Assembly: GCA_965220745.1 (NCBI GenBank)
Contig: CBDCQT010000003.1
Span: forward strand, 128,001-192,000
DNA length: 64,000 bases
Direction of reading: 5' to 3'
DNA from: Alphaproteobacteria bacterium
GTDB taxonomy: Bacteria; Pseudomonadota; Alphaproteobacteria; UBA828
A model generated the notes under the pieces. That model saw nothing but the letters and a program-made list of their open reading frames with translations, was not told where the DNA came from and made no database searches. The position numbers and the translations under genes are program-made. The stretch's first letter is position 1. Every line of letters starts with the position of its first letter. This document shows, piece by piece, positions 4,983-57,753 of the stretch.

Positions 4983-6428
4983 TTAGCGCCGCAATGCCCG
5001 GCCTGGCCGCTCGCCGGTGGTCTGGCCCACCTCGCGCACGATGGTGCCGTTCACCATGACGATGTCGATACCGGCGGCGGGCCGCGTCGGTGTCTCGAAG
5101 GTGGCTTGGTCGGCGATTGTCTCCGCGTCAAACATCACGAGGTCGGCATGGGCGCCGGCGCGCACCTCGCCGCGATCGATGAGGCCGAACTGGGCGGCGG
5201 TGAGCCCGGTCATGCGGCGCACCGCGTCCTCCAGGGTGAGCAGACCGAGCTCGCGCGCGTAGTGGCCGAGCACGCGCGGGAAGGTGCCCCAGAGCCTGGG
5301 GTGCGGGTGGCGGTCGTGGGGCAGGCCGTCGGAGCCGATCATGCTGTGCTCGTAGGCGATGATGCGGCGTACATCGGCTTCGTCCATCATGAAGTAGATG
5401 CCGCCCGCCGGCTGCAGCTTCGGCACGGCGGCCACTGGATCGAGGCCGAGCGCGGCGGCCACGTCTTCGAGGTCCTGGCCCGCATACTCCGGATGCGGCT
5501 CGGACCAGGTGACGATCACGCGCTCCGCTTTCTCCACCATGTCCGCCAGCAGCACCGTGGAGCCCGCGGTGTAGGGGTAGACGTCGAGGCCGACCGCCTG
5601 GGTCTCGCGGGTCTTCTCGATCAGCGCGAGCGTGTCGCGGCTCCGCCCGAAATTCTGCCGCCCGGCGCACTTGTGGTGGGAGATGACGACGCCGGCGCCG
5701 GCGCGGCGGCCGATCTCGAAGGCTTCCTCCATCGCCTCCTCGACGCCGTTGTGCTCGTTGCGCATGTGGGTGACGTAGAGGCCGCCGGCGGCGCCCGCGA
5801 CCTCCGCCACCGCCGCGACTTCGTCGGTGGTCGCCGCCTTGTTGGGGCCGTAGATGAGCCCGGTGCTGAAGCCGAGCGCCCCGGCCTCCATCCCTTCGGC
5901 CAGCCGTTCGCGCATGGCGTCGATCTCGCCGGCCGTGGCCGGGCGGTCGACATCGTCCATGGTGTCGAGGCGGAGCGCCGAATGGCCGACCAGAAGGCCG
6001 GCGTTGGCAGCTGGCGGCGTTTCGTCCAGCGTCGCCACATAGTCGGAGAAGCGCGGGTAGCGGAAGTCGGCGGGCGGGCCGAGCAGGTCGAGCGGCGGCG
6101 GTACAGGTCGGCCGGGCGCGAGCGGCGCGAGGCTCACCCCGCAGTTGCCCGCGATCACCGTGGTGACGCCCTGGCTGGTCTTGGGTGTCACGTCCGGGTC
6201 CACCAGCAACAGGTTGTCGTCGTGGGTGTGAGCGTCGATGAAGCCCGGCGAGACAATGCGCCCGGTCGCATCGATGGTGCGTGCGGCCTTTGCGCCTGCC
6301 AGATCCCCCACGGCAGCGATCCGGTCGCCCGCGACGGCGACATCGGCCCGCACGCGCGGCGCGCCCGTACCGTCGATCACCGTACCGCCCGTGAAGAGGA
6401 CGTCGTACTGCTGCCCCGCCGCCGCCAT
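4983..6428 (-). CDS. N-acyl-D-amino-acid deacylase (D-aminoacylase)
   Basis: PGFIDAHTHDD, GNCGVS, THMRNE, ISHHK, GSDG, HPRLWGTFPR. Confidence 0.92.
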   Translation of the reverse strand: MAAAGQQYDVLFTGGTVIDGTGAPRVRADVAVAGDRIAAVGDLAGAKAARTIDATGRIVSPGFIDAHTHDDNLLLVDPDVTPKTSQGVTTVIAGNCGVSLAPLAPGRPVPPPLDLLGPPADFRYPRFSDYVATLDETPPAANAGLLVGHSALRLDTMDDVDRPATAGEIDAMRERLAEGMEAGALGFSTGLIYGPNKAATTDEVAAVAEVAGAAGGLYVTHMRNEHNGVEEAMEEAFEIGRRAGAGVVISHHKCAGRQNFGRSRDTLALIEKTRETQAVGLDVYPYTAGSTVLLADMVEKAERVIVTWSEPHPEYAGQDLEDVAAALGLDPVAAVPKLQPAGGIYFMMDEADVRRIIAYEHSMIGSDGLPHDRHPHPRLWGTFPRVLGHYARELGLLTLEDAVRRMTGLTAAQFGLIDRGEVRAGAHADLVMFDAETIADQATFETPTRPAAGIDIVMVNGTIVREVGQTTGERPGRALRR

Positions 6429-6464
6429 CGCCGCCTCCCGCTCTCGCCTGCCGTCGGTGGGACC

Positions 6465-6698
6465 ATGACGGCGGCGCCCACCCGTGACAACAGGCTTTGG
6501 TCTCTGCGGGAGCGGCTAGTATGGTGCCGCTCGATGAAGGAAGAACTGCGCCCAATCCCCAGCGATGCTGACGAAAGAGAACCCGCTCCCACCAAGGGGC
6601 TGGGGACGGCGCTGCATGCGCTCTTCAGACCTCTTGGAGGCGTAGAGCTCGAGCTTCCGCCGCGTGAGCCGATGCGCGAGCCGCGTCGGTTCGACTGA
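6465..6698 (+). pseudogene. FitA/StbC-like antitoxin remnant (degenerate N-terminus, no toxin partner)
   Basis: C-terminus RSMKEELR...LGTALHALFRPLGGVELELPPREPMREPRRFD resembles FitA-type antitoxin tails; RHH N-terminus not recognisable. Confidence 0.5.
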
Positions 6699-6705
6699 TG
6701 CGTGC

Positions 6706-7410
6706 ATGAGCGGCGACAGCACGGACACGAAGGACGGCGCGGGGGCCGATCTCGCGGCGCTGCAGTTCGGCGATAGCTTCTTCCCGAGCGGCGCGGTGTC
6801 CTTCTCGCTCGGGCTGGAGACGCTCCATGCCGACGGCATCGTGACGGATGCGGCTTCGCTCGAAGAGTTCCTCACCGACCAGGTGTTGGAGCGCTGGGCC
6901 ACGGCCGAACGTGCCTTCCTTGCCGCCGCCCATCAAGCCTGCCCGGACTGGCCGGCGGTCGCCGAGATCGACGCCCTGCAGGAGGCAATGACCCCGCCGC
7001 GCGAGCTGCGCGAGGGCTCGCGCAAGGGTGGTGCCGCGCTGCTCGGTGTCCACGCGCGCATGGAGACGCCGGGTGCCCAGGCCTACCGCGAACGGCTGCG
7101 CGCCGGCGACGCGCACGGCCATCTCGCCGTGGTCCAGGGCGTGGTGCTCAAGGGCGCCGGCCTCGACCTCGCCCGCACCGAGGCGGTGAGCCTGCACGGG
7201 CACTGCGCGATGATCCTGGGTGCCGCGCTCAGGCTCGGCTTGATCGGCCACCTCGACGGGCAGATCATGCTGCGCGGGCTTAGGCCCCGGATGGCGGCGC
7301 TCCTGGCCGAGCCGGCGCCCGGCCCCGACGAAGCGCGCTCCTACGCGCCGCTCGCCGATGTCGCCGCCGCCCGCCACGAGGAAGCGGCGGTCCGACTCTT
7401 CAGCAACTGA
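6706..7410 (+). CDS. ureF: Urease accessory protein UreF
   Basis: LQFGDSFFPSGAVSFSLGLE at the N-terminus and HEEAAVRLFSN at the C-terminus. Confidence 0.88.
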   Translation: MSGDSTDTKDGAGADLAALQFGDSFFPSGAVSFSLGLETLHADGIVTDAASLEEFLTDQVLERWATAERAFLAAAHQACPDWPAVAEIDALQEAMTPPRELREGSRKGGAALLGVHARMETPGAQAYRERLRAGDAHGHLAVVQGVVLKGAGLDLARTEAVSLHGHCAMILGAALRLGLIGHLDGQIMLRGLRPRMAALLAEPAPGPDEARSYAPLADVAAARHEEAAVRLFSN

Positions 7411-7425
7411 CCAGGGTGGCCCACA

Positions 7426-8121
7426 ATGCTGTTGACACCGACCGAGATGGAGCGGCTGACGATCTACACCGCCGCCGAGCTCGCGCGAAAGCGCCGAGCG
7501 CGCGGGCTCGCCCTCAACCACCCGGAAGCCGTGGCGCTGATCAGCGACGAGATTCTTGAAGGCGCCCGCGACGGACGCTCGGTGGCGGAGCTGATCGAAC
7601 ATGGCGCCACAATCCTCACCACCGACGATGTCATGCCCGGCGTCGCCGAGATGATGCCGGTGCTGCAGGTGGAGGGCACCTTCCCCGACGGCACCAAGCT
7701 GGTCACGGTCCACGAGCCGATCCGCCCCGGCAAGAGGGCGCGGGACGAAAGCGTGTGGCCGGGCGAGATCATCCCGGCGGAGGGCGAGATCGAGATCAAC
7801 GCAGGCCGGCCGACCGCCACGGTCGCCGTCACCAACACCGGCGACCGGCCGGTTCAGATCGGTAGCCACTACCACTTCTTCGAGGTGAACAGGCATCTCG
7901 ACTTCGACCGCGCAGCCGCCTTCGGCATGCGCCTCGACATCCCGGCCGGCACCGCGGTGCGCTTCGCGCCGGGCGAGACGAAGGAGGTGACGCTGGTCGA
8001 ATTCGGCGGCAGCGGCGAGATGGTGGGGCTCAACGACCTCACTCAGGGCTCGCGGCGCTCCGAGAGCGTCAAGCAGGAGGCGCTCGCCCGTGCCCGCGCC
8101 CGCGGCTTCAAGGGGGCTTGA
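7426..8121 (+). CDS. ureAB: Fused urease gamma/beta subunit
   Basis: [38 protein letters not shown] (gamma) followed by [19 protein letters not shown] (beta). Confidence 0.93.
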
Positions 8122-8124
8122 GCG

Positions 8125-9837
8125 ATGGCACGGATGAGCAGGGCGGAGTACGCGGCGCTCTACGGGCCCACGACCGGCGATTGCGTACGGCTCGGCGACA
8201 GCGAGTTATTGGCCGAGATCGAGCACGACCACGGCGTGCCAGGCGAGGAGTGCCTGCACGGCGGCGGCAAGACTCTGCGGGACGGCATCGGCCTCGTCGC
8301 TGGGCTCGACAGCGCGGCTGGCTCGCTCGACATGCTGGTCTCCAACGCCGTCGTCATCGATCCGGTTCTCGGCATCGTCAAGGGCGACATCGGCATCAAG
8401 GAGGGCCTCATCGCCGGCGTCGGCAAGGCCGGCAATCCGGCGGTGATGGACGGGGTGGACCCCAATTTGCTCTGCGGCGCCGCGACCACGGTGCGCGATG
8501 CGGAAGGGCTGATCGCGACGCCGGGCGGCATCGACGTCCACGTCCACTTTGACAGCGCGCAGCTTTGCGAGCACGCGATCTCGAGCGGCGTCACGACGAT
8601 GCTGGGCGGCTCGCTCGGGCCGATCACCGTCGGCATCGACTGCGGCGGCGCCTGGAACGTCGGCAAGATGCTGCAGGCGGCCGAATCCTGGCCGCTCAAT
8701 TTCGGCTTCCTCGGGCGCGGCAACTCGGCCAAGCCACTCTCGCTGGTCGACCAGATCGCCGGCGGCTGCATGGGGCTCAAGATTCACGAGGACTGGGGCG
8801 CCATGCCGGCGGCGATCGATACCTGCCTCGGCGTCGCCGACGAGATGGACTTCCAGGTCCAGCTCCATACCGACACGCTCAACGAGAGCGGCTTTCTGGA
8901 GGAGACGCTGGCTGCCATCAGGGGCCGCACCATCCACATGTACCACGCCGAAGGCGCCGGCGGCGGGCACGCGCCCGACATCATCCGCATTACCGGCGAG
9001 CCCAACTGCCTGCCGTCGTCGACCAACCCCACCAACCCCTACACGCGCAACACCTTCGACGAACACCTCGACATGATCATGGTCTGCCACCACCTGAACC
9101 CGGCGGTGCCCGAGGACGTGGCCTTCGCCGAGAGCAGGATTCGCGCGCAGACCATCGCCGCCGAGGACGTGCTGCACGATATCGGCGCGATCTCGATGCT
9201 GGGCTCGGACAGCCAGGGGATGGGGCGGATCAACGAGGTCATCTGCCGCACCTGGCAGCTTGCGTCCAAGATGCGGCGCCAGCGCGGCCGGCTCGCGTCG
9301 GAGCAGACCGCCATGGGCGATAACGAGCGGATCAAGCGCTACATCGCGAAGTACACCATCAACGCGGCACGCACCTTCGGCATCGACCGCCACATCGGCT
9401 CGCTGGAGCCGGGCAAGCTCGCGGACGTGGTGCTCTGGCGCCCGGCCTTCTTCGGCATCAAGCCGGAGCTGGTGATCAAGGGCGGCTTCATCGTGTGGTC
9501 GGCGATGGGCGACAGCGCGGCTTCGCTGATGACCTGCGAGCCGTTGCTGATGCGCCCGCAATGGGGTGCCTTCGGCCGGGCCAAGGAGGCGCTGAGCCTG
9601 AGCTTCGTCTCTCAGGCGGCGGCCGATGCCGATATCGACGGCAGGCTCCGGCTGAAAAGCCGCACCGTGCCTGTACAGGGCACGCGCAAGCTCGCCAAGG
9701 GCCACATGCTCCACAACGGCGCCTGCCCCGAGGTGACGGTCGACCCCGAGACCTTCGAGGTGCGGGTCGACGGCGAGCTCGCGACCTGCGAGCCGGCCGA
9801 CAAGCTGCCGCTCGCCCAGCGCTACATGCTGCGCTAG
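8125..9837 (+). CDS. ureC: Urease alpha subunit, divergent paralogue
   Basis: [55 protein letters not shown]. Confidence 0.92.
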
Positions 9838-9879
9838 GGCGCGCCGCGAGGGAGCCGGGGCACGCGCAGGAGCCGGGAT

Positions 9880-11106
9880 ATGGAGCAAATCCTGCGCGGT
9901 GCCCTGATCGCCGGCGGCGACGGCACCCGCCTCGACATCGGCATCGCGGACGGGCGCATCGCCGAGATCGCGCCCATGATCGAGGCCGACGCGCCGGTGC
10001 TCGACCTGGGTGGCCGCCTGGTGGCGCCTGGCTTCATCGAGACTCACATCCATCTCGACAAGGCCTGCATTCTCGACCGCTGCCGCGCGGAGCGGGGCGA
10101 CCTCGCCGAGGCCATCGACGAAGTGGCGCGGGTCAAGCGGGCGTTCACGGCCGACGACGTGAACGCCCGCGCGCGACGCGTGCTCGATGCCTGCATTGTC
10201 CAGGGCACCACCCACATGCGCACCCACCTGGAGGTCGATCCCGGCATCGGCATGCGCGGCTTCGACGGCGTATTGCCGTTGATCGAGGCCTACCGCTGGG
10301 CGATCGACCTGGAAATTTGCGTCTTCCCGCAGGAAGGGCTGCTCAACAATCCGGGCACCGACGAGCTGATGGTCGAGGCGCTGGAGCGAGGCGCCCGCGT
10401 GGTCGGCGCCGCGCCCTATACCGACAGCGACCCCGCCGGTCAGATCGACCGGGTGTTCGAGCTCGCGCGTGAGTTCGACGTCGATATCGACATGCACCTC
10501 GACTTCGGCGAAAGCGCGGACGAGCTTGACCTTGACCAGGTCTGCAGGCTGACCGAACGCTTCGGCTACGGCGGGCGGGTCACGGTCGGCCACGTCACCA
10601 AGCTCTCGGCCGCGACGCCCGAAAACCTGGCGCAAGTGGCGGATCGCATGGCCGACGCGGGCGTCGCCTGCACCGTGCTGCCCGCGACCGACCTCTTCCT
10701 CATGGGGCGGGGCGATGAGGCCAACGTGCGGCGCGGGGTCACACCCGCCCACCGGCTGCTCGGCCACGGCGTCAACTGCTCGCTCTCGTCCAACAACGTG
10801 CTCAACCCGTTCACGCCCTTCGGCGATTGCTCGCTGGTGCGCATGGCGAACCTCTACGCCAATATCTGCCACGTGGGCGCGCGGTCGGAGATGTTGGACT
10901 GCTTCGACATGATCACGCGCCGATCCGCCCGCATTCTCGGTCTTGACGATTACGGCATCGCGGTCGACAAGGCGGCCGACCTCGTGGTGCTGGACGCGAC
11001 CGATCCGGCAGACGCGGTGGCAGCGATTGCGCCGCCGCTTTACGGCTTCAAGCGCGGGCGCATGACTTTCTGGCGCCCGCCGGCGGAACTCCTCGGGCCG
11101 TCGTAG
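9880..11106 (+). CDS. Cytosine/creatinine deaminase-like amidohydrolase
   Basis: PGFIETHIHLDK, GTTHMRTHLEVD, FPQEG, IDMHLDF, GHVT, NNVLNPFTPFG. Confidence 0.85.
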   Translation: MEQILRGALIAGGDGTRLDIGIADGRIAEIAPMIEADAPVLDLGGRLVAPGFIETHIHLDKACILDRCRAERGDLAEAIDEVARVKRAFTADDVNARARRVLDACIVQGTTHMRTHLEVDPGIGMRGFDGVLPLIEAYRWAIDLEICVFPQEGLLNNPGTDELMVEALERGARVVGAAPYTDSDPAGQIDRVFELAREFDVDIDMHLDFGESADELDLDQVCRLTERFGYGGRVTVGHVTKLSAATPENLAQVADRMADAGVACTVLPATDLFLMGRGDEANVRRGVTPAHRLLGHGVNCSLSSNNVLNPFTPFGDCSLVRMANLYANICHVGARSEMLDCFDMITRRSARILGLDDYGIAVDKAADLVVLDATDPADAVAAIAPPLYGFKRGRMTFWRPPAELLGPS

Positions 11107-11261
11107 CGCCGCCGCTGGCCCGACGCGACAGCAGCGAAGATTCGGGCAGCACGACCGCTTCGATCTATGGGCGGGCCGATTCGCGGGCGCGCCGGTATAA
11201 TGGAGCGTCCCCCGGTGCGGCCGGGGGTCTCTCGCGCTCATGGTGGAAGAAGGAATCGCCG

Positions 11262-12314
11262 GTGAGGCGCTGGGGTTACATCGCACTCATCGTCGGCATT
11301 GCGCTGGTCATCGGCCTGGTGTGCTTCCAGGGCGCCGGGGACGTGGCGGCTACCGTTGCCGCGGTGAGCTGGGGCATCGTCGTGGTGGTCCTGGTGCGAC
11401 TCGTGCCGATCATGCTGGACGGCTATGTCTGGCGGCTCCTTTTCCTGGAAGGTCATCGGCCGCCGGTGCTGACGGCGCTCTGGGCACGCTGGATCGGCGA
11501 GGCTGTCAACACGCTGGTGCCAGCGTTCCAGGTGGGGGGCGCCGTGGTGCGCTCGCGGCTCTTGGTCATGCGCGGTGTGCCCGGCCGGATCGCGGGTGCA
11601 AGCGTCGTCGTTGACCTCACCCTCAGCACGATCACCCTGCTGTTCTTTACCCTGGTCGGCATCGGCCTGCTAATGGCCCACCACGGCGAAAGCGATATCG
11701 CGCGCGCCATCGGCTACTGCGTTGCGGGCGGGTTCGTGGTCGTCGTCCTGCTCTGCGTCGTCCAGCAACGCGGATTCTTCGGCTGGATCATCCGCCTGGC
11801 GGCGCGGTTCGCCAGGGGCAAGGCGTGGGACAACGCCGTCGGCGGCGCCGAGGCGCTCGACGAGGCGATCCTGGATCTCTACCGACACCGCTGGCTGTTG
11901 GCGGGGAACGCGGCCGGTCAGCTCACAGCCTGGATGCTCGGCGCCGCTGAGGTCTACGCCGCGCTCTACTTCATGGGCTACGAGGTCAGCATCGCCGATG
12001 CGTTGCTGATCGAGAGCCTGATCCTGGCGACGCGCACTGCGGCGTTCTTCGTGCCGGGCGCGCTCGGCGTGCAGGAGGGTGTGCTGGTGCTGCTTGGCGG
12101 CATGATCGGCCTCGGGCCCGAGGTGGCGCTGGCACTTTCGCTGGTCAAGCGGGTCCGCGAGCTGGTGATCGGCGTCCCCGGCCTCCTTGCCTGGCAGGTG
12201 GCCGAGGGCAAGAACCTTCTTAGTCGCAGCGCCCGGCGCGCGGCGGCAGCGTGCGCGCCGGAGCCGCCGGCCCCCGCCGCCTCTCCCACCAGCCGCTCGC
12301 GGGAAGCTCTCTGA
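11262..12314 (+). CDS. Lysylphosphatidylglycerol synthase TM domain (HpnL-like) membrane protein
   Basis: WIGEAVNTLVP, AFFVPGALGVQEG, ALALSLVKRVRE. Confidence 0.75.
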   Translation: MRRWGYIALIVGIALVIGLVCFQGAGDVAATVAAVSWGIVVVVLVRLVPIMLDGYVWRLLFLEGHRPPVLTALWARWIGEAVNTLVPAFQVGGAVVRSRLLVMRGVPGRIAGASVVVDLTLSTITLLFFTLVGIGLLMAHHGESDIARAIGYCVAGGFVVVVLLCVVQQRGFFGWIIRLAARFARGKAWDNAVGGAEALDEAILDLYRHRWLLAGNAAGQLTAWMLGAAEVYAALYFMGYEVSIADALLIESLILATRTAAFFVPGALGVQEGVLVLLGGMIGLGPEVALALSLVKRVRELVIGVPGLLAWQVAEGKNLLSRSARRAAAACAPEPPAPAASPTSRSREAL

Positions 12315-39035: not shown

Positions 39036-41066
39036 TTAGGCGGCGGTTATGGCTGCCGTTGCGGCGTGGAGCCAGTCGAGAGCAGCCGCGTCGTCCGCCA
39101 GTAGTGGTGCGAGGGTCTCGGCCACGCGCGCGTGATAGGTGTCGAGCCAGGCGCGCTCATCCGCCGTCAGCATGGCAGGGTCGATGAGGGCGCGGTCGAT
39201 GGGTGCGAGCGTCAGCGTCTCGAAGCCGAGGAAACTCCCGTTGGGGTCGTCGGCCTCCGTCACCGCCACAAGGTTCTCGATGCGGATGCCATAGGCGCCG
39301 GTCTTGTAGTAGCCGGGCTCGTTGGAGACCACCATGCCGGGTGCGAGCGCCGCGCCCGAGCCCATGCGGGAGATGCGCTGCGGGCCCTCGTGCACGTTGA
39401 GGTAGTGGCCCACGCCGTGCCCGGTGCCGTGGTCGTAGTCGAGGCCCGCCTGCCACAGGAACTGGCGGGCGAGCGTGTCGAGCTGGGCGCCAGTGGTGCC
39501 GCGCGGGAAGCGCGCCGTCGCCAGCGCAATATGGCCGCGCAGCACGCGGGTGAAGCGGTCCCGGTGCTCGGGCTCCGGCCGGCCGATCGCGACCGTGCGG
39601 GTCACGTCCGTGGTGCCGTCCAGGTACTGCCCGCCCGAATCGACGAGATAGAGCGAGCCCGCCTCCAGCGTGCGGTTGCTCTCTGCCGTCACCCGGTAGT
39701 GGACGATGGCGCCGTTGGGGCCCGCGCCCGAGATCGTGTCGAAGCTCGGCCCCCGGTAGTGCTGGCCGCAGGCGCGCATCGCCGCCAGGCGCGCGACCGC
39801 GTCGAGTTCGGTGATCGAGCCAGGTGGCGCGGCCGCGAGCCAGGCCAGGAAGCGGGTCAAGGCCGCGCCATCTCGGCGATGGGCCGCACGGATGCCGTCG
39901 AGCTCCACGGCGTTCTTGCAGGCCTTGGGCAGCGCGCAGGGATCGGCGCCGCGAATCACCTCGGCACCGCCCTCCGTCAGCCGATCGACCATCCAGACCG
40001 GCGTCGCCGCCTCGTCGACCAGCACCGACTTGCCGGCGCTGGCAAGCGCGTCGAACACGTTCGCCATGGTCTCCGGCGCCTGCACGTGCACGGCATTGCC
40101 GAGATGTGCCGGAGCCTCGGGGAGGAGCTTGCGGCTGTCCACGAACCAGTCCACTTCGGCGTCCCGGTGAACGACCGCGAAGGAGTGGGGGAGGGGGCTG
40201 TTGGCGACGTCGGCGCCGCGCACGTTGAGCAGCCAGGCGATGGAATCGGGTGCGCTCAGCACCGCGGCGGCCGCGCCCTTCTCCGCAAGCCGGGCAGCAA
40301 CGATCTCCCGCTTCTCGCCCGCCTCGGCGCCCGCGAAGCGCGCCGGATGGGGGGCGATGGGGCCGAGCGGGGCCGGCGGCTGGTCCGCCCACAGCGCGTC
40401 GATGGGATTGTCCTCGCACGGGACCAGGCGGGCACCGACAGCGCGGCAGGGCGCAGCGAGCCGATCTCTTTGGCTCGCGCCGTGAAGCCGGGGGTCATAG
40501 CCGAGCGCGGCGCCTCCCGCGAGATGCTCCCTGAGCCACGCGCCGGGCGGTTCGTCAGTGATATGACGGTGCTCGTAGAGGCTGCCGTCCACCTGCGCCG
40601 CCGCCTGCAGGGTGTAGCGGCCGTCGACGAAGAGCGCGGCCCGCTCGGCCAGCACGATCGCCAGGCCGGCAGAGCCCGTGAAGCCGGTGAGCCATGCCAG
40701 CCGCTGCGAGCGGCGCGCCACGTACTCGCCCTGGTGCTCGTCGCTGAGTGGCACCACGAAGCCATCGAGGCCGTGCTTGGCAAGCTCGGCCCTGAGCGCC
40801 GTAAGCCGGGACTCCTGCTGCGGGGTGTCGATCCCGTCCGGCGTTTCGGCATAGGTCTGTCGCAGAGCCTCGAGGCGCTCGGCTCCGACGGTCCCGGCGT
40901 CGGCCTCCGGGTGGATCAGGCGAAGCCAGTCCCGGTCCTGCACCGCCGCCGCGGCGACTCCTCGCACCAGCGCTTCGACCTCATGGATTGGCGTGTCGAT
41001 ACCGGCCTCGGCGAGCGCCTGCGCCAGTGCGCTTCGCCGGTCGGTTGTCGCGTTGTCCTCTGGCAT
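39036..41066 (-). CDS. pepP: Xaa-Pro aminopeptidase
   Basis: DSGGQYLDGTTDVTRT, HGTGHGVG, VHEGP, SNEPGYY, GIRIEN. Confidence 0.92.
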   Translation of the reverse strand: MPEDNATTDRRSALAQALAEAGIDTPIHEVEALVRGVAAAAVQDRDWLRLIHPEADAGTVGAERLEALRQTYAETPDGIDTPQQESRLTALRAELAKHGLDGFVVPLSDEHQGEYVARRSQRLAWLTGFTGSAGLAIVLAERAALFVDGRYTLQAAAQVDGSLYEHRHITDEPPGAWLREHLAGGAALGYDPRLHGASQRDRLAAPCRAVGARLVPCEDNPIDALWADQPPAPLGPIAPHPARFAGAEAGEKREIVAARLAEKGAAAAVLSAPDSIAWLLNVRGADVANSPLPHSFAVVHRDAEVDWFVDSRKLLPEAPAHLGNAVHVQAPETMANVFDALASAGKSVLVDEAATPVWMVDRLTEGGAEVIRGADPCALPKACKNAVELDGIRAAHRRDGAALTRFLAWLAAAPPGSITELDAVARLAAMRACGQHYRGPSFDTISGAGPNGAIVHYRVTAESNRTLEAGSLYLVDSGGQYLDGTTDVTRTVAIGRPEPEHRDRFTRVLRGHIALATARFPRGTTGAQLDTLARQFLWQAGLDYDHGTGHGVGHYLNVHEGPQRISRMGSGAALAPGMVVSNEPGYYKTGAYGIRIENLVAVTEADDPNGSFLGFETLTLAPIDRALIDPAMLTADERAWLDTYHARVAETLAPLLADDAAALDWLHAATAAITAA

Positions 41067-42064: not shown

Positions 42065-42769
42065 ATGTCTGAGATGCCGGACTGGCAACGCTTCCTGAGC
42101 GCGGATGACAGGGAGACCATCGAGCGCGGCCGCTGGGCCAAGCGCGTCGGCTTCGGCGTGCGCCCGGCCGTCCTCCTCATCGACGTGCAGAACTACATGG
42201 TGGGAGAGGAGGGCAACCACGACCTCGCCGCCTATCCTTATAGCTGTGCCGCCGGCTGGCCCGCCGTCTGGCAGACCAAGCGCATCGTCGGCGCGGCCCG
42301 CGCCGCCGGCGCCCCGGTGATCTACACCCGCTTCGCCATCGACCGCACCGTCGGTGATGCCGGGCTCTTCGACGCCAAGATCGGCGCGGAAGCGGGCGAG
42401 AACGTCTACTTCGAAGGTACTCACGGCGGCGAAATCGTAGCCGCAGTGGCGCCCGAGCCCGGCGATCTGGTCTTCACCAAGAAGAAGCCGAGCTCCTTCC
42501 ACGGCACACCCCTCCTGCCCTATCTGATCGACCGCGCCATCGATACGCTGATCGTCACCGGCGGCGCCACCTGCAACTGCGTCCGGGCCACGGTCTTCGA
42601 CGCGTTTTCTTATAATTACCGCACCATCGTACCGTCGGACGCGGTCTTCGACCGCCTGCCGATCAGCCACGCGATCAACCTGTTCGACATGAACCGCTGC
42701 TCGGCCGACGTGTCGGACACCGAGGCCGTGCTCGACTATTTCGCCGAGCAGGCCCAGCGCGCGGCTTAA
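42065..42769 (+). CDS. Isochorismatase-family cysteine hydrolase (NicF/N-carbamoylsarcosine amidase-like)
   Basis: GFGVRPAVLLIDVQ, KKKPSSFHGT, GATCNCVRAT. Confidence 0.85.
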   Translation: MSEMPDWQRFLSADDRETIERGRWAKRVGFGVRPAVLLIDVQNYMVGEEGNHDLAAYPYSCAAGWPAVWQTKRIVGAARAAGAPVIYTRFAIDRTVGDAGLFDAKIGAEAGENVYFEGTHGGEIVAAVAPEPGDLVFTKKKPSSFHGTPLLPYLIDRAIDTLIVTGGATCNCVRATVFDAFSYNYRTIVPSDAVFDRLPISHAINLFDMNRCSADVSDTEAVLDYFAEQAQRAA

Positions 42770-50175: not shown

Positions 50176-52575
50176 ATGGCGGTTCTCGACGATGATTTCC
50201 GCGCAGACGGGACGCTGAACGAGGGCGGTGACGGGCTCTGGTCGCCCCCCAGGCCGGCGCCATCGGGTGCGCCGCACGATTTGCCATCCCTGTACGAGCA
50301 GGAACGGGCGCGGGCCGACGCGGCCGAGGCACGCTGCGAAGAACTGCGCCAAGCGGAGCTTTCCGCCCGTACTGACGCTGGTTCGTGGAAGTCGCGCTTC
50401 AAGTCCTGCCGACGCCGGCTGAGCGAGGCCGAGGAGGAGACGAAGGAACTGCGCCGCGCGGCGAAGGACGTGCCGTCGTTGCAGGCCCAAGTGGCGCGCC
50501 TGACGACGCTGCTTTCCGAAGCCGGCATCGAGTCGAGCGAGACCGGGAAGGTCGAGGTGCTGGGCAAGGAAGTCGCCCGGCTTCGCAGGGCCTTGGCAGC
50601 GCAGCCGGGGAAGGCTGCGGCCGGGGAGGCTCGGCGGGCTCGCACGGCGCTGGAACAGGCGCAGCAGCACAAGGACACCATCAGGACGCAGCGCAAGGAG
50701 ATCACCCGGCTGAACCGGGAAGTGGCCCGGCGCGACAAGGAGCTGGTCCGGCTCAATGAGCGCCTCGGCCAGCAGAAGGAACGGACGGAGGACATCAGGG
50801 AGACCGCCAAGAATCTGTCACAGGACTCTCTCCGGCTCTACAGGGAGGTCGGGTTCCTGCGCGACGCCGAGGCCCGATCCCGGTCGCTGTCCGAGGAGAA
50901 CTTCTGGCTGCGCCATGCGCTTGACGTGTCCAGGCACGGGCAGAAGAAGTTGACGGCCCGGATCGCCAAGCTCCGCGCGGCCGGAGCGACGCTGACGAAG
51001 TTGTCGTTCGACGAGGCGGCTCACCTGCGCAACGTTCTGCGACGGTCGCGACGTCAGAAGACCATGATCGCCCGGCTGCGCAAGGAGAACGCCCGGCTGC
51101 GAAGGACCGCGCAGAGGGCGCGGAACCGGGTCGAGGCGCTGGAAGCCGACATCGCGCGGCTGCGCTCGACCGGAGCGGTGCTGTCGAGAAGGCTCTACGG
51201 ACGCAAGAGCGAGCAGCAGAAGAAGCCGGGCACGGGACGCAAGCGCGGCCAGCAGCGCGGCGCGCCCGGCCATGGCCGTACCCAGCGGCCCGGACTCGAC
51301 GAACGGCTCGAAGAGCTCGAAGTGCCGGAGCAGGCGCGGGTCTGCGGGCACTGCGGCCAACCCTATGCGCCGAACGGCGCGGAGGTGTCCGCCCTGATCG
51401 AGTTCGAGGTCATCGTGTACAAGCGCGTGATCAGCCGTGAGCGATTGCGCCGGACCTGCGCGTGTGCGTCCTCGCCCGTGGAAGTGACCGCGCCCCCGGC
51501 GCCGCGGCTGTTCCCCACGACATCCTACGGAATCACCTTCTGGGCGCGCTTCCTCTTCGAGCACTGCGCCTGCTTCCGGCCCCTGCGCCGCGTCGCCGCG
51601 TGGTTCTCCAGCCAGGGACTGGCGGTCTCGCCGGGGACGCTGGCCAACAGCCGCAAGCGCTTCGCGGCGCTGTTCGAGAGCCTGTACGAGGCGATCCTCG
51701 CGCATCAGAACACCGCGGCGCTGCGCCATGCCGACGAGACCTCATGGCGCGTGCAGGAACTTCGTGGCGACGACTGCTCGAGCCGCGCCTGGCTGTGGAC
51801 TTCGGTCAGCAGCGACGCGGTCTGCTTCCATATCGACCCGAGCCGCAGCGCCGAGGCGGCGCTCAAGCTGTTCGCCGAAGCCCTGCCCGGCACGATCATC
51901 GTCTGCGACCGCTATAGCGCGTACAAGCGCCTTGTTCGCCTTCTCGGGGACATGGCGATTCTGGCCTACTGTTGGGCTCATCAACGCCGCGATTTTGTCG
52001 AGGCCGCCGCCGGCCAGCCTCGGCTGGAGCAATGGTGCCAGGGATGGGTCGGGCGGATCGCGGAGATCTACCGGCTGAACGGGGAGCGGCTCGAACATTA
52101 CGACCCCGGCAGCAAACGCCAGACGGCGGCGTTCAGGAAGGCGACGCGCAAGCTGAAGAAGGCGCTCGACCGGCTGTTCGCGCAGGCCGAAGCGGAACTG
52201 GCCGCCTTGCCGGACCACGCGCGCGAGGCCAGGGCGCTGCGCTCCCTGCTCAACCATCGCGAGGGGCTGTGCGTCTTCGTCGACAACCCCCTGGTCCCCA
52301 TGGACAACAATTTTGCCGAGAGAATCCTGCGCGCGCCCGCGATAGGGCGAGGGTTGTCGCACGGCTCCGACAGCGAGGACGGCGCCCGGTTCACCGCGAT
52401 CATGTACTCGGTCGTCGCCACGCTCTCGATGAACGGCATCGACGTCCTGCGCTGGCTTCAGGCGTGGCTCGAAGCGTGCGCGAAGAACGGCGGCCAACCG
52501 CCCGATGACCTGTCGGCCTGGCTGCCATGGTCGATGAGCGAGAAGCGCAGGCGCAAGTTCACGGCGCCGGGATGA
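50176..52575 (+). CDS. IS66 TnpC-type DDE transposase with long N-terminal coiled coil
   Basis: LYGRKSE, CGHC zinc finger, HADET, CDRYSAY, CWAHQRR, DNNFAERILR. Confidence 0.92.
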   Translation: MAVLDDDFRADGTLNEGGDGLWSPPRPAPSGAPHDLPSLYEQERARADAAEARCEELRQAELSARTDAGSWKSRFKSCRRRLSEAEEETKELRRAAKDVPSLQAQVARLTTLLSEAGIESSETGKVEVLGKEVARLRRALAAQPGKAAAGEARRARTALEQAQQHKDTIRTQRKEITRLNREVARRDKELVRLNERLGQQKERTEDIRETAKNLSQDSLRLYREVGFLRDAEARSRSLSEENFWLRHALDVSRHGQKKLTARIAKLRAAGATLTKLSFDEAAHLRNVLRRSRRQKTMIARLRKENARLRRTAQRARNRVEALEADIARLRSTGAVLSRRLYGRKSEQQKKPGTGRKRGQQRGAPGHGRTQRPGLDERLEELEVPEQARVCGHCGQPYAPNGAEVSALIEFEVIVYKRVISRERLRRTCACASSPVEVTAPPAPRLFPTTSYGITFWARFLFEHCACFRPLRRVAAWFSSQGLAVSPGTLANSRKRFAALFESLYEAILAHQNTAALRHADETSWRVQELRGDDCSSRAWLWTSVSSDAVCFHIDPSRSAEAALKLFAEALPGTIIVCDRYSAYKRLVRLLGDMAILAYCWAHQRRDFVEAAAGQPRLEQWCQGWVGRIAEIYRLNGERLEHYDPGSKRQTAAFRKATRKLKKALDRLFAQAEAELAALPDHAREARALRSLLNHREGLCVFVDNPLVPMDNNFAERILRAPAIGRGLSHGSDSEDGARFTAIMYSVVATLSMNGIDVLRWLQAWLEACAKNGGQPPDDLSAWLPWSMSEKRRRKFTAPG

Positions 52576-53453
52576 CCGGCGCGGTCGAGTGCCGCTACTA
52601 CGGCCGCGACTTCACCACTGAGGAAATGGCGTTGCTGCGCGCCCTCGTCGCGTCCGACCCGCAGCCGACCCGCGCCGCCCTGTCGAGAGAGTTCTGCCGG
52701 CGCATCGGCTGGCTCAAGCCCGACGGCGGGATCAAGGACATGATGGCCCGTGTCACCATGCTCGCCATGCACCGCGACGGCGTGATCGCCCTGCCGCCGC
52801 CGAGGAGTCGGAAGCACCGGCCCAGGCCGATCGTGTTCGGACCCGACACCGAGCCGCCGCTGTTCCCTCCACCGACGACCCTCGACGAGGTCCGCCCCCT
52901 CGACTTCCGCATCGTCGTGAGCGGCAGCCGGGAAGGCAGGCTGTGGAACGAGTTCGTCGCCCGCTACCACTACCTCGGATACAAGACCCTGGTCGGCGCC
53001 CAGATGCGCTACGCCGTCCATGACCGCAACGGCTGGCCGCTCGCCATGCTCGGCTTCTCCACCGCCGCCTGGAAGCTCGCCCCGCGCGACCGCTTCATCG
53101 GATGGACGCCCGAGATGCGCGAGAAAAACCTGCCGCTCGTGGTCGACAACCCGCGCTTCCTGATATCGCCGTGGATCGAGATCCCCAACCTCGGCTCGCA
53201 CATCCTCGCCATCGTGCGCCGCCGCCTGCCCACCGACTGGTCCGAGCGCTACAACGTCACGCCCGTGCTGATCGAGACCTTCGTCGAAACCCCGCGCTAC
53301 ACCGGCGCCGTCTACCGGGCCTCGGGCTGGACCCATGTCGGGACCACCCAGGGGCGCGGACGCTACGACCGGGACAGGTTCTACGACAAGCCCCGCAAGG
53401 ACGTCTGGCTCCGGCCGCTCAGAAGGGATTGGCAACGCGCGCTCAGCCGCTAA
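52572..53453 (+). CDS. DUF4338 / Druantia DruA-like protein
   Basis: LSREFC, YHYLGY, RDRFIGW, RFLI, NLGSHIL, ETFVE, GAVYRASGWTHVGTTQGRGR; ATGA overlap with the transposase stop. Confidence 0.85.
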   Translation: MTGAVECRYYGRDFTTEEMALLRALVASDPQPTRAALSREFCRRIGWLKPDGGIKDMMARVTMLAMHRDGVIALPPPRSRKHRPRPIVFGPDTEPPLFPPPTTLDEVRPLDFRIVVSGSREGRLWNEFVARYHYLGYKTLVGAQMRYAVHDRNGWPLAMLGFSTAAWKLAPRDRFIGWTPEMREKNLPLVVDNPRFLISPWIEIPNLGSHILAIVRRRLPTDWSERYNVTPVLIETFVETPRYTGAVYRASGWTHVGTTQGRGRYDRDRFYDKPRKDVWLRPLRRDWQRALSR

Positions 53454-54258: not shown

Positions 54259-55449
54259 ATGTCACAGTACGGTGAGCGCACAATCTCAAAACGGACCGTC
54301 GATGCCCTTTCCGTCGAGGATCGGGACGCCATCTTCTGGGACCGGGACCTGTCCGGCTTCGGGGTGCGCGTCTACCCCTCCGGCCGCAAGGTCTACGTGG
54401 TGCAGAGCCGGGGTCCGGGGGGCTCCAGGCGGGTCACGCTGGGCCGGCACGGGAAGATCACCGCAGAGCAGGCGCGCAAGCGCGCCGCCGGGATCATCGA
54501 CAGGATCAAGACCGGGCAGGAGCCGCTGCCGGTTGAGCCCAAGAAGGAGAAGGGGCCGACCGTAGCCGACCTTGCCGACCGCTTCATGCGCGCGCATGTG
54601 GCGGTGAACTGCAAGCCTGCGACGGCGGTGCGCTATGGCGGGCTGCTCAGGAACTGCATCCTGCCCGTCCTGGGCTCCATGCCCATCGGCTCGGTCGAGC
54701 GCACGCACGTGGCGGACCTGCACTACGCGCTGCGTGACCGGCCGAGCTCGGCGAACAGGTCGGTCGACATTCTGAAGAAGATGTATTCCCTGGCCGAGGT
54801 GTGGGGCCTTCACCCGCAGGGGCGGAACCCGTGCCGGTCCGTGCGCAAGTACAAGGAGCGCAAGCCACAGCGGTTCCTGAGCGCCGAGGAGTACCAGTGC
54901 CTGGGCCGGGTCCTGGACGAGATGGAGGCGGAGGGCACGGCCTGGCTCCCCGCGATTGCCGCGATTCGCCTGCTGATCCTGACCGGCTGCCGGCGCAACG
55001 AGATCCTGTCGCTGCGATGGGACGACGTCGACCGGTCCTCGGGCGAGTTGCGCCTGAGGGATGCGAAGACGGGCGGCAGGATGGTACCGCTGACGCCCAC
55101 GGCGGCGGCGGTGCTGGACGCGATCCCGCGCATGCCGGGCAGTCCGTGGGTGATCGCAGGGAAGCGGCCGGGGAAGCACCTGAGGAACGTCAACGAGCTC
55201 TGGTATCGCCTGCGGGTCCGGGCCGACCTGAAGGACGTGCGCCTCCATGACCTGCGTCATTCCTGGGCCAGCAGGGCGCTGGCGCTCGGCGAGAGCCTGC
55301 CGATGATCGGCAGGCAGCTGGGCCACACGCAGGTGCAGACGACGGCGCGCTACGCGCACCTGGCACAGGACACGGAGAAGGTCTCTGCGGCCAGGGTGGC
55401 GGACAGCATCGAGGCCGACATCATGGTTCCGGACGCGGAGGCGGCATGA
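54259..55449 (+). CDS. Tyrosine integrase with arm-binding domain, copy 1
   Basis: GFGVRV, TGCRRNE, HDLRH, LGHTQ, TARYAH. Confidence 0.94.
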   Translation: MSQYGERTISKRTVDALSVEDRDAIFWDRDLSGFGVRVYPSGRKVYVVQSRGPGGSRRVTLGRHGKITAEQARKRAAGIIDRIKTGQEPLPVEPKKEKGPTVADLADRFMRAHVAVNCKPATAVRYGGLLRNCILPVLGSMPIGSVERTHVADLHYALRDRPSSANRSVDILKKMYSLAEVWGLHPQGRNPCRSVRKYKERKPQRFLSAEEYQCLGRVLDEMEAEGTAWLPAIAAIRLLILTGCRRNEILSLRWDDVDRSSGELRLRDAKTGGRMVPLTPTAAAVLDAIPRMPGSPWVIAGKRPGKHLRNVNELWYRLRVRADLKDVRLHDLRHSWASRALALGESLPMIGRQLGHTQVQTTARYAHLAQDTEKVSAARVADSIEADIMVPDAEAA

Positions 55450-55488
55450 TGCGCGGGGGACCGGGTACAACCGAGGAGATCGCGCGCC

Positions 55489-56706: not shown

Positions 56707-56748
56707 GCGGTGAGCGCTGACGCTCATCCGCTCGTTTAGGATCGGCCC

Positions 56749-57753
56749 ATGCACTTCGTCGCTCTCGTCGCCGCGCTTCTGGCACTCCCGTCGTTGGCCT
56801 TCGCCGCCTGCGAGGGGCAGGACTGGCGTACCCAGCTTGCGCCGGAGACGATGCAGGAGATTCGGGACAGCCTGGCGCACGTGCCGTTTCACCGGGGGAT
56901 CGCGTTCGAGGCGGTCCGCGGCGAGAGCCGGCTCACCCTGTTCGGCACCGTCCACGTGTACGATCGAGGCGTCCATGTCCCGGACGATATCGCCGCGCGC
57001 ATCCGCTCGGCCGACCTCGTTCTCGTGGAAGCGACGCCGGAGGTGATGGCGTCCTTCCGGCAGAGGCTGGCGGAGGACTACGCGCTGTCGTTCGATGTGT
57101 CCGGCCCTCGTCTCTGGAGCCGTCTCACGCCTCGGGAGTGGGCCGTCCTTCTCCGCGCCCTCCTGGCCCGGGGCATTGATGCCGAGGTGGCCGAGCGGAT
57201 GCGGCCCTGGTTCGCCGCTGCCATGCTGGAGCAAGCCCCTTGCGACATTGCTGCCAGGGCGGAGGGCGGCAAGATCCTCGACGAGCGGGTCGAGGCGCTG
57301 GCGCGCGATGCGGGTGTGGCCGTGGGCGGCCTGGACGAGGATGCGGAGCGGCTTCTGACCTACTTCTCCGGTCTGCCGGAGGACGAGCAGCTCGATCTTC
57401 TGCGCCTGACGCTCGCGTCCCACGCGTCGGACGGCAGCCAGATCGTGACGCTGGTGCGCGGTTGGCAGGACGGCGAGGTGGCTCTTGCGTGGGAGGTTGC
57501 CAACGCCCGCGCTGCCGCGCTCACCGGGGACGGCGCGGCGGTTGAGGCGTGGTTCGCCCGGCTGCACGAGGTTCTCGTGGCGGCGCGCAATCGGGAGTGG
57601 ATGCGGCGGCTTCTGGAGTTGAGCGGCGCGGTCCCGCATATCGTCGTAGCGGTCGGTGCGATGCATCTTCCTGGCGAGGACGGGCTTCTGCGTCTGCTCG
57701 AGCGGCGCGGCTTCGCGATCCGTACCCTGATCCTGGCGCCGCGAGACGGATGA
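56749..57753 (+). CDS. TraB/GumN (TIKI-like) family protein
   Basis: Signal peptide, LFGTVH, RPW, RNREW, VAVGAMHLPGEDGLL. Confidence 0.88.
   Translation: MHFVALVAALLALPSLAFAACEGQDWRTQLAPETMQEIRDSLAHVPFHRGIAFEAVRGESRLTLFGTVHVYDRGVHVPDDIAARIRSADLVLVEATPEVMASFRQRLAEDYALSFDVSGPRLWSRLTPREWAVLLRALLARGIDAEVAERMRPWFAAAMLEQAPCDIAARAEGGKILDERVEALARDAGVAVGGLDEDAERLLTYFSGLPEDEQLDLLRLTLASHASDGSQIVTLVRGWQDGEVALAWEVANARAAALTGDGAAVEAWFARLHEVLVAARNREWMRRLLELSGAVPHIVVAVGAMHLPGEDGLLRLLERRGFAIRTLILAPRDG

What the first reader, a model, noticed from the sequence alone, without database searches (positions are those of the whole stretch)
6706..11106. Urease paralogue with remodelled substrate loops, next to a deaminase: candidate pathway for a non-urea substrate
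Seen: all metal and catalytic motifs are present (HVH, KIHED, HTD, HAEG, CHH, ESRIR, SD). The loop that is normally GGGTGPAxGTxATTCTPG reads [15 protein letters not shown], and SSDSQAMGR reads GSDSQGMGR. Known: these two loops carry Ala167 and Ala363 (Klebsiella aerogenes numbering), whose carbonyls position urea; urease-fold enzymes with other substrates exist, e.g. methylenediurea deaminase of Ochrobactrum. Seen: a cytosine/creatinine-deaminase-like gene follows 42 nt after the stop. Inference: a metallo-amidohydrolase for a substituted urea or amide, acting in one pathway with the deaminase.
Basis: partly seen in the sequence, partly recalled or inferred. Interest (0 to 1): 0.8.

Follow-up and report, generated by a model that had tools for sequence, protein, structure and literature searches.

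The report
Pared-down second urease operon
This is an intact copy of a widespread but biochemically untested kind of nickel urease that has lost most of its helper genes and gained an odd neighbour gene; it most likely still splits urea rather than a new substrate.

Summary
ureF (6706-7410), a fused ureAB (7426-8121), ureC (8125-9837) and a CodA-like gene (9880-11106) lie head to tail. UreC keeps every metal and catalytic residue. It has a loop 3 residues shorter than in K. aerogenes urease, and Gly at positions 167 and 363.

The inference is mostly not supported. The loops mark a large lineage: 194 of 200 relatives carry the exact motif. Its usual layout is urtABCDE-ureE-ureF-ureAB-ureC-ureG-ureD. 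ureG and ureD follow ureC in 61 of 69 loci, and UrtD plus UrtE lie upstream in 41 of 66. It is the only UreC in four genomes. Only 9 of 570 positions separate the window's subclade from the urea-transporter-linked members, and none is catalytic.

The "deaminase" follows ureC in only 7 of 80 loci. Its family sits elsewhere in 15 of 16 other genomes. It lacks CodA's Glu217 and Asp313.

This genome has three short-loop ureases and no canonical one. Helper genes are spread out: ureF here, ureD at a second locus, and a full set at a third.

Most likely this is a true urease (about 0.65). No member of the lineage has a solved structure, and I found no published assay, so a shifted substrate range stays open. 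Earlier notes of this scan flagged the same lineage on other DNA.

The parts
6706..7410 (+). ureF, urease accessory protein. The ORF is open from GTG 6664; the likely start is ATG 6706.
   Evidence: Pfam UreF scores 115 bits against a cut-off of 23.3. It is 40-45% identical to the UreF of the ureE-F-AB-C-G-D clusters of P. cerasi and A. ferrianus, against 30% to the UreF of this genome's contig C12 cluster.
7426..8121 (+). ureAB, fused gamma/beta urease subunit (231 aa)
   Evidence: Pfam Urease_gamma covers residues 1-99 and Urease_beta covers 112-208. NCBIfam NF009671, bifunctional urease subunit gamma/beta, scores 371.5 bits against a cut-off of 243.
8125..9837 (+). ureC, urease alpha subunit (570 aa) of the short-loop Gly167/Gly363 lineage
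   Evidence: TIGR01792 scores 810.9 bits against a cut-off of 680. All metal and catalytic residues align to K. aerogenes UreC. The model has pTM 0.90 and TM 0.93-0.94 to solved ureases.
8605..8649 (+). Shortened active-site loop [15 protein letters not shown] (residues 161-175), with Gly at the K. aerogenes Ala167 position
   Evidence: Alignment. The motif is exact in 194 of 200 clade members. Model confidence here is only moderate: block 161-170 has mean pLDDT 65.
9202..9228 (+). GSDSQGMGR (residues 360-368). It holds the metal ligand Asp, and Gly at the Ala363 position.
   Evidence: Alignment. Present in 200 of 200 clade members. In the 62-row alignment every short-loop row but one (L114, classed 'other' by the script) has Gly here and every long-loop row has Ala.
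9880..11106 (+). CodA/AtzC-like amidohydrolase (408 aa) that lacks two catalytic residues of cytosine deaminase
   Evidence: Pfam Amidohydro_3 and Amidohydro_1 match. It is below every NCBIfam cut-off (best 254.8 bits against 408). The best solved relative is E. coli cytosine deaminase, E = 4e-53. CodA Glu217 aligns to Phe209, and Asp313/Asp314 align to Asn305/Asn306. Both changes are invariant in 119 family members.
4983..6428 (-). Divergently transcribed Amidohydro_3 protein (PRK09061-like, 481 aa). It is a conserved neighbour in the closest relatives only.
   Evidence: It is present upstream in 7 of 66 loci that have at least 5.5 kb upstream, all with UreC 88-97% identical to the window's.

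Best explanation
The locus is a pared-down copy of a widespread two-subunit nickel-urease operon. The usual layout of that operon is urtABCDE-ureE-ureF-ureAB-ureC-ureG-ureD.

In this alphaproteobacterial lineage, whose DNA is held in runs labelled sponge metagenome, the operon has kept ureF and the two structural genes. It has lost ureE, ureG, ureD and the urea transporter. A CodA-like amidohydrolase gene now lies where ureG and ureD normally sit.

The enzyme most likely still hydrolyses urea to ammonia and carbamate at a carbamylated-lysine-bridged dinickel centre. This is inferred and was not assayed.

Maturation is inferred to use helpers encoded elsewhere in the genome: the same-type UreD next to the second fused urease on contig C7, and UreG and UreE from the complete ureABCEFGD cluster on contig C12.

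The short loop and the two Gly residues are a trait of the whole lineage, not an adaptation of this copy.
For: 1. Family scores are above curated cut-offs for UreC and for the fused gamma/beta subunit. All ligands and catalytic residues are kept. The fold has TM 0.93-0.94 to solved ureases.

2. Across 80 related loci at 76-97% identity, ureG and ureD follow ureC in 61 of the 69 loci with at least 2 kb downstream. Of the 66 loci with at least 5.5 kb upstream, UreF is found in 62, UreE in 56, and UrtD plus UrtE in 41.

3. In P. cerasi, UrtA, UrtC, UrtD, UrtE and UreG pass their NCBIfam cut-offs; UreD and the UreE N-terminal domain match Pfam above their cut-offs. In A. niigataensis plasmid p2 the annotated cluster is urtBCDE-ureE-ureF-ureAB-ureC-ureG-ureD-HupE/UreJ, lying next to allantoin genes.

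4. It is the only UreC found in two MAG chromosomes (G004, G005) and in G089 and G181.

5. The loop is the same in transporter-linked members and in the window. Only 9 of 570 positions distinguish the window's subclade, and none is a ligand or catalytic residue; 273 columns are invariant.

6. The helpers are complementary. The genome has ureF here, a ureD on C7 that is 41% identical to the UreD of this operon type (29% to the C12 UreD), and one ureG and one ureE on C12. The same split is seen in relative G053, whereas the C7-type locus of G305 has the full E-F-AB-C-G-D order.

7. Gaps of 15, 3 and 42 nt between the four genes fit one transcript.
Against: - No member of the short-loop lineage has a solved structure. 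The 32 urease chains matched in the PDB are K. aerogenes/pneumoniae, jack bean, pigeon pea, S. pasteurii, H. pylori, H. mustelae, Y. enterocolitica and U. parvum. The two whose alignments I saw have the long loop.
- Four literature searches gave no paper that assays one, so urea hydrolysis is inferred from context only.
- Most cultured carriers also have a canonical urease: 5 of 5 Pseudomonas/Stutzerimonas, 5 of 5 Burkholderiales MAGs, and A. ferrianus. That leaves room for a divergent role.
- In the window itself there is no urea transporter, ureG or ureD nearby. The neighbours are amidohydrolases.
- Ala to Gly at both pocket positions plus a shorter loop could enlarge the pocket. The model is not confident there (pLDDT 65 for residues 161-170, 46-56 for the flap).
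- Some Urt-like transporters are recalled (not a tool result) to carry short amides as well as urea. In A. niigataensis p2 an ANTAR-domain protein gene, preceded by a gene annotated only as a transporter substrate-binding domain protein, lies upstream of the cluster.
Confidence: 0.65

Rival explanations
1. The short-loop Gly167/Gly363 enzyme prefers a substrate other than urea, such as a small amide or an N-substituted urea. Here it would work in a pathway with the flanking amidohydrolases.
For: - Both pocket loops are altered and strictly conserved.
- The lineage lies outside the branch holding all sampled long-loop ureases.
- It usually coexists with a canonical urease.
- The genome carries three short-loop paralogues with three different loop sequences.
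- In the closest relatives ureC is followed by the CodA-like gene, and in L010, L013 and L086 also by an isochorismatase-family gene and an amidase gene.
- 6 of 10 alphaproteobacterial genomes with this UreC type also hold the CodA-like family, against 17 of 301 overall. Three of the six are kin.
Against: - Identical loops occur in members wired to UrtABCDE and to HupE/UreJ.
- It is the sole UreC in four genomes.
- The contacts at positions 167 and 363 are made by backbone carbonyls (recalled knowledge), which Gly can still supply.
- The CodA-like gene is next to ureC in only 7 of 80 loci, and in 1 of 16 other genomes that carry it.
- That protein lacks CodA Glu217 and Asp313.
Confidence: 0.15
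2. The copy is a urease that matures without the full helper set or with another metal, as recalled for the iron urease UreA2B2 of Helicobacter mustelae. That would explain why ureE, ureG and ureD could be lost from the locus.
For: - ureE, ureG and ureD are missing from this locus. They are also missing in L006-L013 (except L009, which ends 52 nt after ureC and cannot be judged) and in G053.
- Two further relatives have ureAB-ureC with no helper nearby (L032, L033), as does L141.
- A solved iron urease exists (3qga, listed).
Against: - ureF is retained next to the structural genes in the window and in 6 of the 9 closest loci.
- A same-type ureD is retained at C7.
- ureG and ureE exist on C12.
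- This retention pattern is conserved in G053, which points to a continued need for the helpers.
Confidence: 0.1
3. The locus is a decaying or silent remnant of a urease operon with no enzymatic role.
For: It has lost three helper genes and the transporter. Two other urease loci are present in the same genome.
Against: - All four reading frames are intact.
- 273 of 570 UreC columns are invariant across 76 sequences, and every catalytic residue is kept.
- The arrangement is conserved across relatives at 88-97% identity.
- Contigs from three RNA libraries lie on the stretch: 28 of 30 bins in one library labelled sponge metatranscriptome, at 90-99% likeness. This is a weak hint only, since DNA carry-over cannot be excluded.
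Confidence: 0.05

Closest known systems
Canonical nickel ureases with solved structures (K. aerogenes UreABC, S. pasteurii, H. pylori, jack bean)
   Same: The domain architecture and fold are the same (TM 0.93-0.94). Identity is 50-57% by Foldseek. All nickel ligands, the carbamylated Lys, His219, Asp221, Cys319, His320 and Arg336 are kept. Both depend on UreD/F/G-type helper genes.
   Different: The loop after beta-strand 2 is 3 residues shorter. Gly replaces Ala167 and Ala363. The gamma and beta subunits are fused. The enzyme lies outside the long-loop branch in the tree. No structure or assay is known to me.
ureE-ureF-ureAB-ureC-ureG-ureD clusters, often with urtABCDE in front (Pseudomonas syringae group, Stutzerimonas, Aminobacter, Methylobacterium, Shinella, Acidithiobacillus ferrianus, many MAGs). 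In databases they are annotated simply as urease.
   Same: UreC is 76-83% identical with identical pocket loops. The same fused UreAB and the same type of UreF are present.
   Different: The window lacks ureE, ureG, ureD and the transporter. It carries a CodA-like gene after ureC and an Amidohydro_3 gene upstream.
Helicobacter mustelae UreA2B2 (iron urease without linked helper genes; recalled; PDB 3qga listed)
   Same: It is a second, two-subunit urease without a complete local helper set.
   Different: Whether UreA2B2 has the long loop is recalled, not checked here. The window's locus keeps ureF, and the genome keeps ureD, ureG and ureE elsewhere.
E. coli cytosine deaminase CodA and AtzC (for the downstream gene)
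   Same: It has the amidohydrolase fold. The HxH motif, the third and fourth His, and the substrate-binding Gln of the FPQEG motif are conserved.
   Different: Glu217 is replaced by Phe209, and Asp313/Asp314 by Asn305/Asn306, invariantly in the family. A paralogue in the same genome keeps HxxE and Asp. The protein is below all NCBIfam cut-offs.

Membership tests
Nickel urease alpha subunit (UreC) | Score above the curated family cut-off | tested here: met
   TIGR01792 scores 810.9 bits against 680, and NF009686 scores 866 against 354. Pfam Urease_alpha and Amidohydro_1 both match.
Nickel urease alpha subunit (UreC) | Metal ligands His134, His136, carbamylated Lys217, His246, His272 and Asp360 (K. 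aerogenes numbering) | tested here: met
   All are aligned and identical. Their positions in the window protein are given.
Nickel urease alpha subunit (UreC) | Catalytic and flap residues His219, Asp221, Cys319, His320 and Arg336 | tested here: met
   KIHED, CHH and ESRIR are all present.
Nickel urease alpha subunit (UreC) | Canonical urea-contacting loops: loop length, Ala167 and Ala363 | tested here: not met
   The loop is 3 residues shorter, and Gly is at both positions. The same holds for all 200 clade members examined.
Nickel urease alpha subunit (UreC) | Partner gamma and beta subunits encoded alongside | tested here: met
   A fused UreAB lies 3 nt upstream.
Nickel urease alpha subunit (UreC) | UreD, UreF and UreG (and UreE) available for activation | tested here: met
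   Met at genome level only. ureF is adjacent; ureD is on C7 and C12; ureG and ureE are on C12.
Nickel urease alpha subunit (UreC) | Hydrolysis of urea, dependent on nickel | not testable with these tools
   This needs an enzyme assay. No published assay of the lineage was found.
ureE-ureF-ureAB-ureC-ureG-ureD operon type | UreC groups with these clusters in a tree and shares their loop motif | tested here: met
   It falls in a 12-row clade with SH-aLRT 96. The loop motif is shared.
ureE-ureF-ureAB-ureC-ureG-ureD operon type | Complete gene order with ureE upstream and ureG-ureD downstream | tested here: not met
   The window has only ureF-ureAB-ureC. 61 of 69 relatives have ureG and ureD downstream.
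Cytosine deaminase / CodA-type amidohydrolase (downstream gene) | Score above a curated family cut-off | tested here: not met
   The best score is NF004636 at 254.8 bits against 408. The cytosine deaminase models score 219.8 against 438 and 196.6 against 483.
Cytosine deaminase / CodA-type amidohydrolase (downstream gene) | HxxE motif (CodA His214, Glu217) and the strand-8 Asp (Asp313) | tested here: not met
   The motif reads His206-Leu-Asp-Phe209, and Asn305-Asn306 replace the Asp pair. Both are invariant in 119 relatives.
Cytosine deaminase / CodA-type amidohydrolase (downstream gene) | HxH metal motif and the His246 equivalent | tested here: met
   His56, His58 and His238 are present.

The most novel reading that the evidence does not exclude
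The short-loop, Gly167/Gly363 enzymes form a radiation that, on a midpoint-rooted tree, branches below the canonical ureases and has never been assayed. They may not all be ureases. The three paralogues of this genome carry three different loops ([44 protein letters not shown]) and could hydrolyse three different small amides or ureides. Under this reading, the copy in the window would be coupled to the flanking amidohydrolases and to a CodA-like protein that has changed its chemistry.
Probability: 0.12. Interest if true: 0.75.

Novelty: new variant of a known kind. Interest (0 to 1): 0.35.

Why it matters
Urease is a textbook enzyme, but all solved structures come from one branch, the one with the long loop and Ala at positions 167 and 363. 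This finding documents a second, very common branch. It occurs in Pseudomonas, Aminobacter, Methylobacterium, Burkholderiales and bacteria from marine and sponge samples. Its urea-contacting loops are different and frozen, and nobody seems to have tested it.

If it is an ordinary urease, then genome-based urea budgets that count it are sound. The loops would then show how much the pocket tolerates. If it is not, many 'urease' annotations in environmental genomes would be wrong.

The window adds a small twist. The helper genes of three ureases are divided among three loci, which predicts sharing of nickel-insertion proteins between paralogous enzymes.

Tried and rejected
- **Literature.** Four searches on urease paralogues, ureC2/ureF2/ureAB, urease-like enzymes and second ureases listed only Brucella, Yersinia, Helicobacter and genome surveys. 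None treats this lineage. One Nitrospirales paper was checked by passages and was not relevant.
- **Methylenediurea.** One search listed one paper mentioning the word, which I did not read.
- **Dimethylguanidine hydrolase paper.** In PMC11399263 (passages read), a urease downstream of DmgH is said to let A. niigataensis DSM7050 grow on dimethylguanidine. I could not check that this urease belongs to the lineage. The Aminobacter copy I examined lies in a different context.
- **50%-identity representative library.** It merges the lineage with canonical ureases (best representative 58% identical), so it could not define the clade. It did reveal deeper short-loop relatives.
- **Structure model.** The two regions of interest are the least confident (pLDDT 65 at residues 161-170, 46-56 at 301-340), and no coordinates are returned. 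The pocket could not be judged.
- **Promoter and terminator scan of 6300-11400.** It found no sites, which is uninformative in DNA of about 70% G+C.
- **Reads.** All four runs are contigs. No listed RNA-library contig bridges the ureC/CodA-like junction, so co-transcription is not shown. What a part without cover means cannot be said.
- **Protein atlas for the CodA-like protein.** It gave only 'amidohydrolase / cytosine deaminase family' clusters.
- **Neighbours of the CodA-like family in 15 other genomes.** They are varied: amidase in 4 genomes, gamma-glutamyltranspeptidase in 3, AllG or AllH in 2, plus Liv-type ABC transporters and others. No substrate could be inferred.
- **A first alignment script timed out** and was rerun on fewer rows.


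Full report
**What is there.**
The window is about 68-70% G+C. On the + strand lie four genes:
- ureF, 6706-7410 (the ORF is open from 6664);
- a fused ureAB, 7426-8121;
- ureC, 8125-9837;
- an amidohydrolase gene, 9880-11106.

The gaps between them are 15, 3 and 42 nt. Upstream and divergent is an Amidohydro_3 gene (4983-6428, minus strand). Further upstream are an MFS transporter, a class-III aminotransferase and ABC transporter genes. Downstream are hpnL, a GST gene and panB.

UreC passes the NCBIfam equivalog cut-off (TIGR01792, 810.9 bits against 680). UreAB passes the cut-off for the bifunctional gamma/beta subunit (371.5 against 243).

The alignment to K. aerogenes UreC shows every nickel ligand and catalytic residue conserved. 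It shows a loop three residues shorter, [15 protein letters not shown] against GGGTGPAAGTHATTCTPG. Gly replaces both Ala167 and Ala363. That these two residues position urea through their carbonyls is recalled knowledge, not a tool result.

**The loops mark a lineage, not this copy.**
Searches returned 120 protein clusters and 80 genomic loci at 76-97% identity. Hosts include alpha-, beta- and gammaproteobacteria: the Pseudomonas syringae group, Stutzerimonas, Acidithiobacillus ferrianus and many MAGs. Plasmids of Aminobacter, Methylobacterium, Shinella, Ancylobacter and Acinetobacter carry copies at 74-78% identity.

The 15-residue loop is exact in 194 of 200 sequences, and SDSQGMGR is present in 200 of 200.

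I built a 62-row maximum-likelihood tree (IQ-TREE quick search, LG+G4, SH-aLRT only).
- The 27 long-loop/Ala363 rows, including Klebsiella, Thermus, Paenibacillus and Haloarcula, form one side of a branch (support 93).
- The window's protein lies in a 12-row clade (96), inside a 20-row group (99) in which 19 rows have Gly363 (L114 is classed 'other').
- It therefore does not nest among the ureases with solved structures.
- Short loop and Gly363 go together in every row except L114. Haloarcula has an intermediate loop with Ala.
- Several long branches in the tree are flagged as unreliable, and the root is only a midpoint.

**Context says urea.**
Of 69 loci with at least 2 kb after ureC:
- 61 have ureG and ureD;
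- 5 have the CodA-like gene;
- 3 have neither.

Of 66 loci with at least 5.5 kb upstream:
- 62 have UreF;
- 56 have UreE;
- 41 have UrtD plus UrtE.

In P. cerasi, UrtA, UrtC, UrtD, UrtE and UreG pass their NCBIfam cut-offs. UreD and the UreE N-terminal domain match Pfam above their cut-offs.

In Aminobacter niigataensis plasmid p2 the annotated order is urtB-urtC-urtD-urtE-ureE-ureF-ureAB-ureC-ureG-ureD-HupE/UreJ. Allantoinase and allantoate amidohydrolase genes lie nearby.

The lineage is the only UreC found in two MAG chromosomes and in two of 301 sampled alphaproteobacterial genomes (G089, 94% complete; G181, 98% complete). Elsewhere it coexists with a canonical copy: 5 of 5 Pseudomonas/Stutzerimonas genomes, 5 of 5 Burkholderiales MAGs, and A. 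ferrianus.

Only 9 of 570 positions separate the 10 sequences of the window's subclade from 66 others. None is a ligand or catalytic residue, and 273 columns are invariant. The pocket of the window's enzyme is therefore the pocket of the transporter-linked enzymes.

**The genome has three ureases and shares helpers.**
The 4.8-Mb genome (99.96% complete) has three UreC genes. All three have a short loop with Gly363, and none is canonical.
- Contig C12 holds a complete ureA-ureB-ureC-ureE-ureF-ureG-ureD cluster.
- Contig C7 holds ureAB-ureC-ureD.
- The window holds ureF-ureAB-ureC.

The window's UreF and the C7 UreD are both of the ureE-F-AB-C-G-D operon type. They are 40-45% and 41% identical to the P. 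cerasi and A. ferrianus proteins, against about 30% to the C12 proteins.

Relative G053 shows the same split. The C7-type locus of the more distant G305 still has the order ureE-ureF-ureAB-ureC-ureG-ureD.

I infer that two pared-down operons retain complementary helpers and borrow UreG and UreE from the third. This argues that the window's enzyme is still matured as a nickel enzyme. Helper sharing itself was not tested.

**The 'deaminase'.**
The downstream protein is most like E. coli cytosine deaminase (E = 4e-53) and next most like AtzC. It is below every NCBIfam cut-off.

CodA Glu217 aligns with Phe209, and Asp313/Asp314 align with Asn305/Asn306. Both changes are invariant in 119 relatives at 69-98% identity. 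A paralogue on contig C11 keeps HxxE and the Asp. It is therefore not a standard deaminase, and its chemistry is unknown.

The family occurs in 17 of 301 alphaproteobacterial genomes. Within 7 kb of it, UreC is found in 1 of 16 genomes other than this one, namely G053 of the same family. In G227 the gene lies at a contig start, so adjacency there cannot be judged.

Its neighbours elsewhere vary: amidase, gamma-glutamyltranspeptidase, AllG/AllH and Liv-type transporters. In L010, L013 and L086 it is followed by isochorismatase-family and amidase genes.

6 of 10 genomes with this UreC type also carry the family. Three of the six are kin. In the three non-kin genomes (G089, G102, G252) the genes lie on different contigs, and in G227 they are on separate contigs with the CodA-like gene at a contig start, so adjacency there cannot be judged.

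**Structure and expression.**
The AlphaFold model (26-row alignment, pTM 0.90) matches solved ureases at TM 0.93-0.94. It is least confident at the short loop and the flap, so it does not settle the pocket.

Runs labelled sponge metagenome hold the stretch. Contigs from three RNA libraries lie on it at 90-99% likeness. This is only a weak hint of transcription.

**Verdict.**
A non-urea substrate and a shared pathway with the neighbour are not supported by comparative context.

Most likely this is a true urease in a pared-down operon (0.65). Because no member of this common lineage has been assayed or solved, as far as my searches reach, a shifted substrate range keeps a modest probability.

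Earlier notes of this scan reached similar readings on other genomes. I treated them as leads and re-derived the points here.

Noticed in passing
G000 contig C12:391188-396572 (locus L005:6102-11861, minus strand): This is a complete ureA-ureB-ureC-ureE-ureF-ureG-ureD cluster. Its UreC is only 54% identical to the window's. It has its own short loop (GGGSGPKTVGIECPG) and unusual variants near the active site (HPH, HAD, CHN, QGRAR). Relatives occur in Roseovarius, Pontibaca, a Mycobacterium and many MAGs. Among 112 full-length relatives, 72 have HPH and 76 have SDSQGVGR.
   Followed up: partly
G000 contig C7:254697-257886 (locus L004:8611-11890, minus strand): This is a third urease locus, ureAB-ureC-ureD, followed by a response regulator and a histidine kinase. 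Its UreC is 64% identical to the window's, with loop GGTMGPLFAIDCGG and CHL in place of CHH. Only ureD is retained here, complementary to the ureF kept in the window.
   Followed up: partly
Protein representatives P0125, P0127, P0128, P0129, P0132, P0137, P0145, P0148, P0172, P0189: These are deep-branching urease-like proteins, 36-54% identical to the window's UreC. They keep HxH, K-x-HED, HTD and SD-x-x-G-MGR, but have short, very different loops and mostly lack the flap Cys. Their contexts and substrates were not examined.
   Followed up: no
L010:8778-12281, L013, L086:7020-10708: In three close relatives the CodA-like gene is followed by an isochorismatase-family gene and an amidase gene. 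From memory, this combination recalls hydrolase sets for ureides, guanylurea, biuret or N-carbamoylsarcosine. These genes are not present after the gene in the window.
   Followed up: partly
window 50176-53453, 54286-57963, 62675-63658: An IS66-family transposase gene is followed by a DruA (Druantia) domain gene. After it come a 1225-aa ORF without any Pfam match at E <= 1e-20 and a Toprim/DUF7146 gene. This may be a mobile or defence island.
   Followed up: no
window 39036-41066 (-) and 42065-42769 (+): These are an M24 peptidase with a creatinase/prolidase N-terminal domain and an isochorismatase-family gene, about 30 kb from the urease locus. No link to the urease locus was tested.
   Followed up: no
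G000, whole genome: There are 74 matches to the UrtD/LivG-type ABC ATPase model at E <= 1e-30. The only UrtD above cut-off is at C3:47471-48190, about 88 kb before the urease locus. The UrtA-like gene beside it (C3:44023-45147) scores below cut-off. The genome is very rich in Liv/Urt-type importers.
   Followed up: no
L134 (Haloarcula marismortui pNG700 ureC): The haloarchaeal UreC has an intermediate loop (GGGYGGG----ATTCTTG) together with Ala363. It branches at the base of the long-loop group.
   Followed up: no
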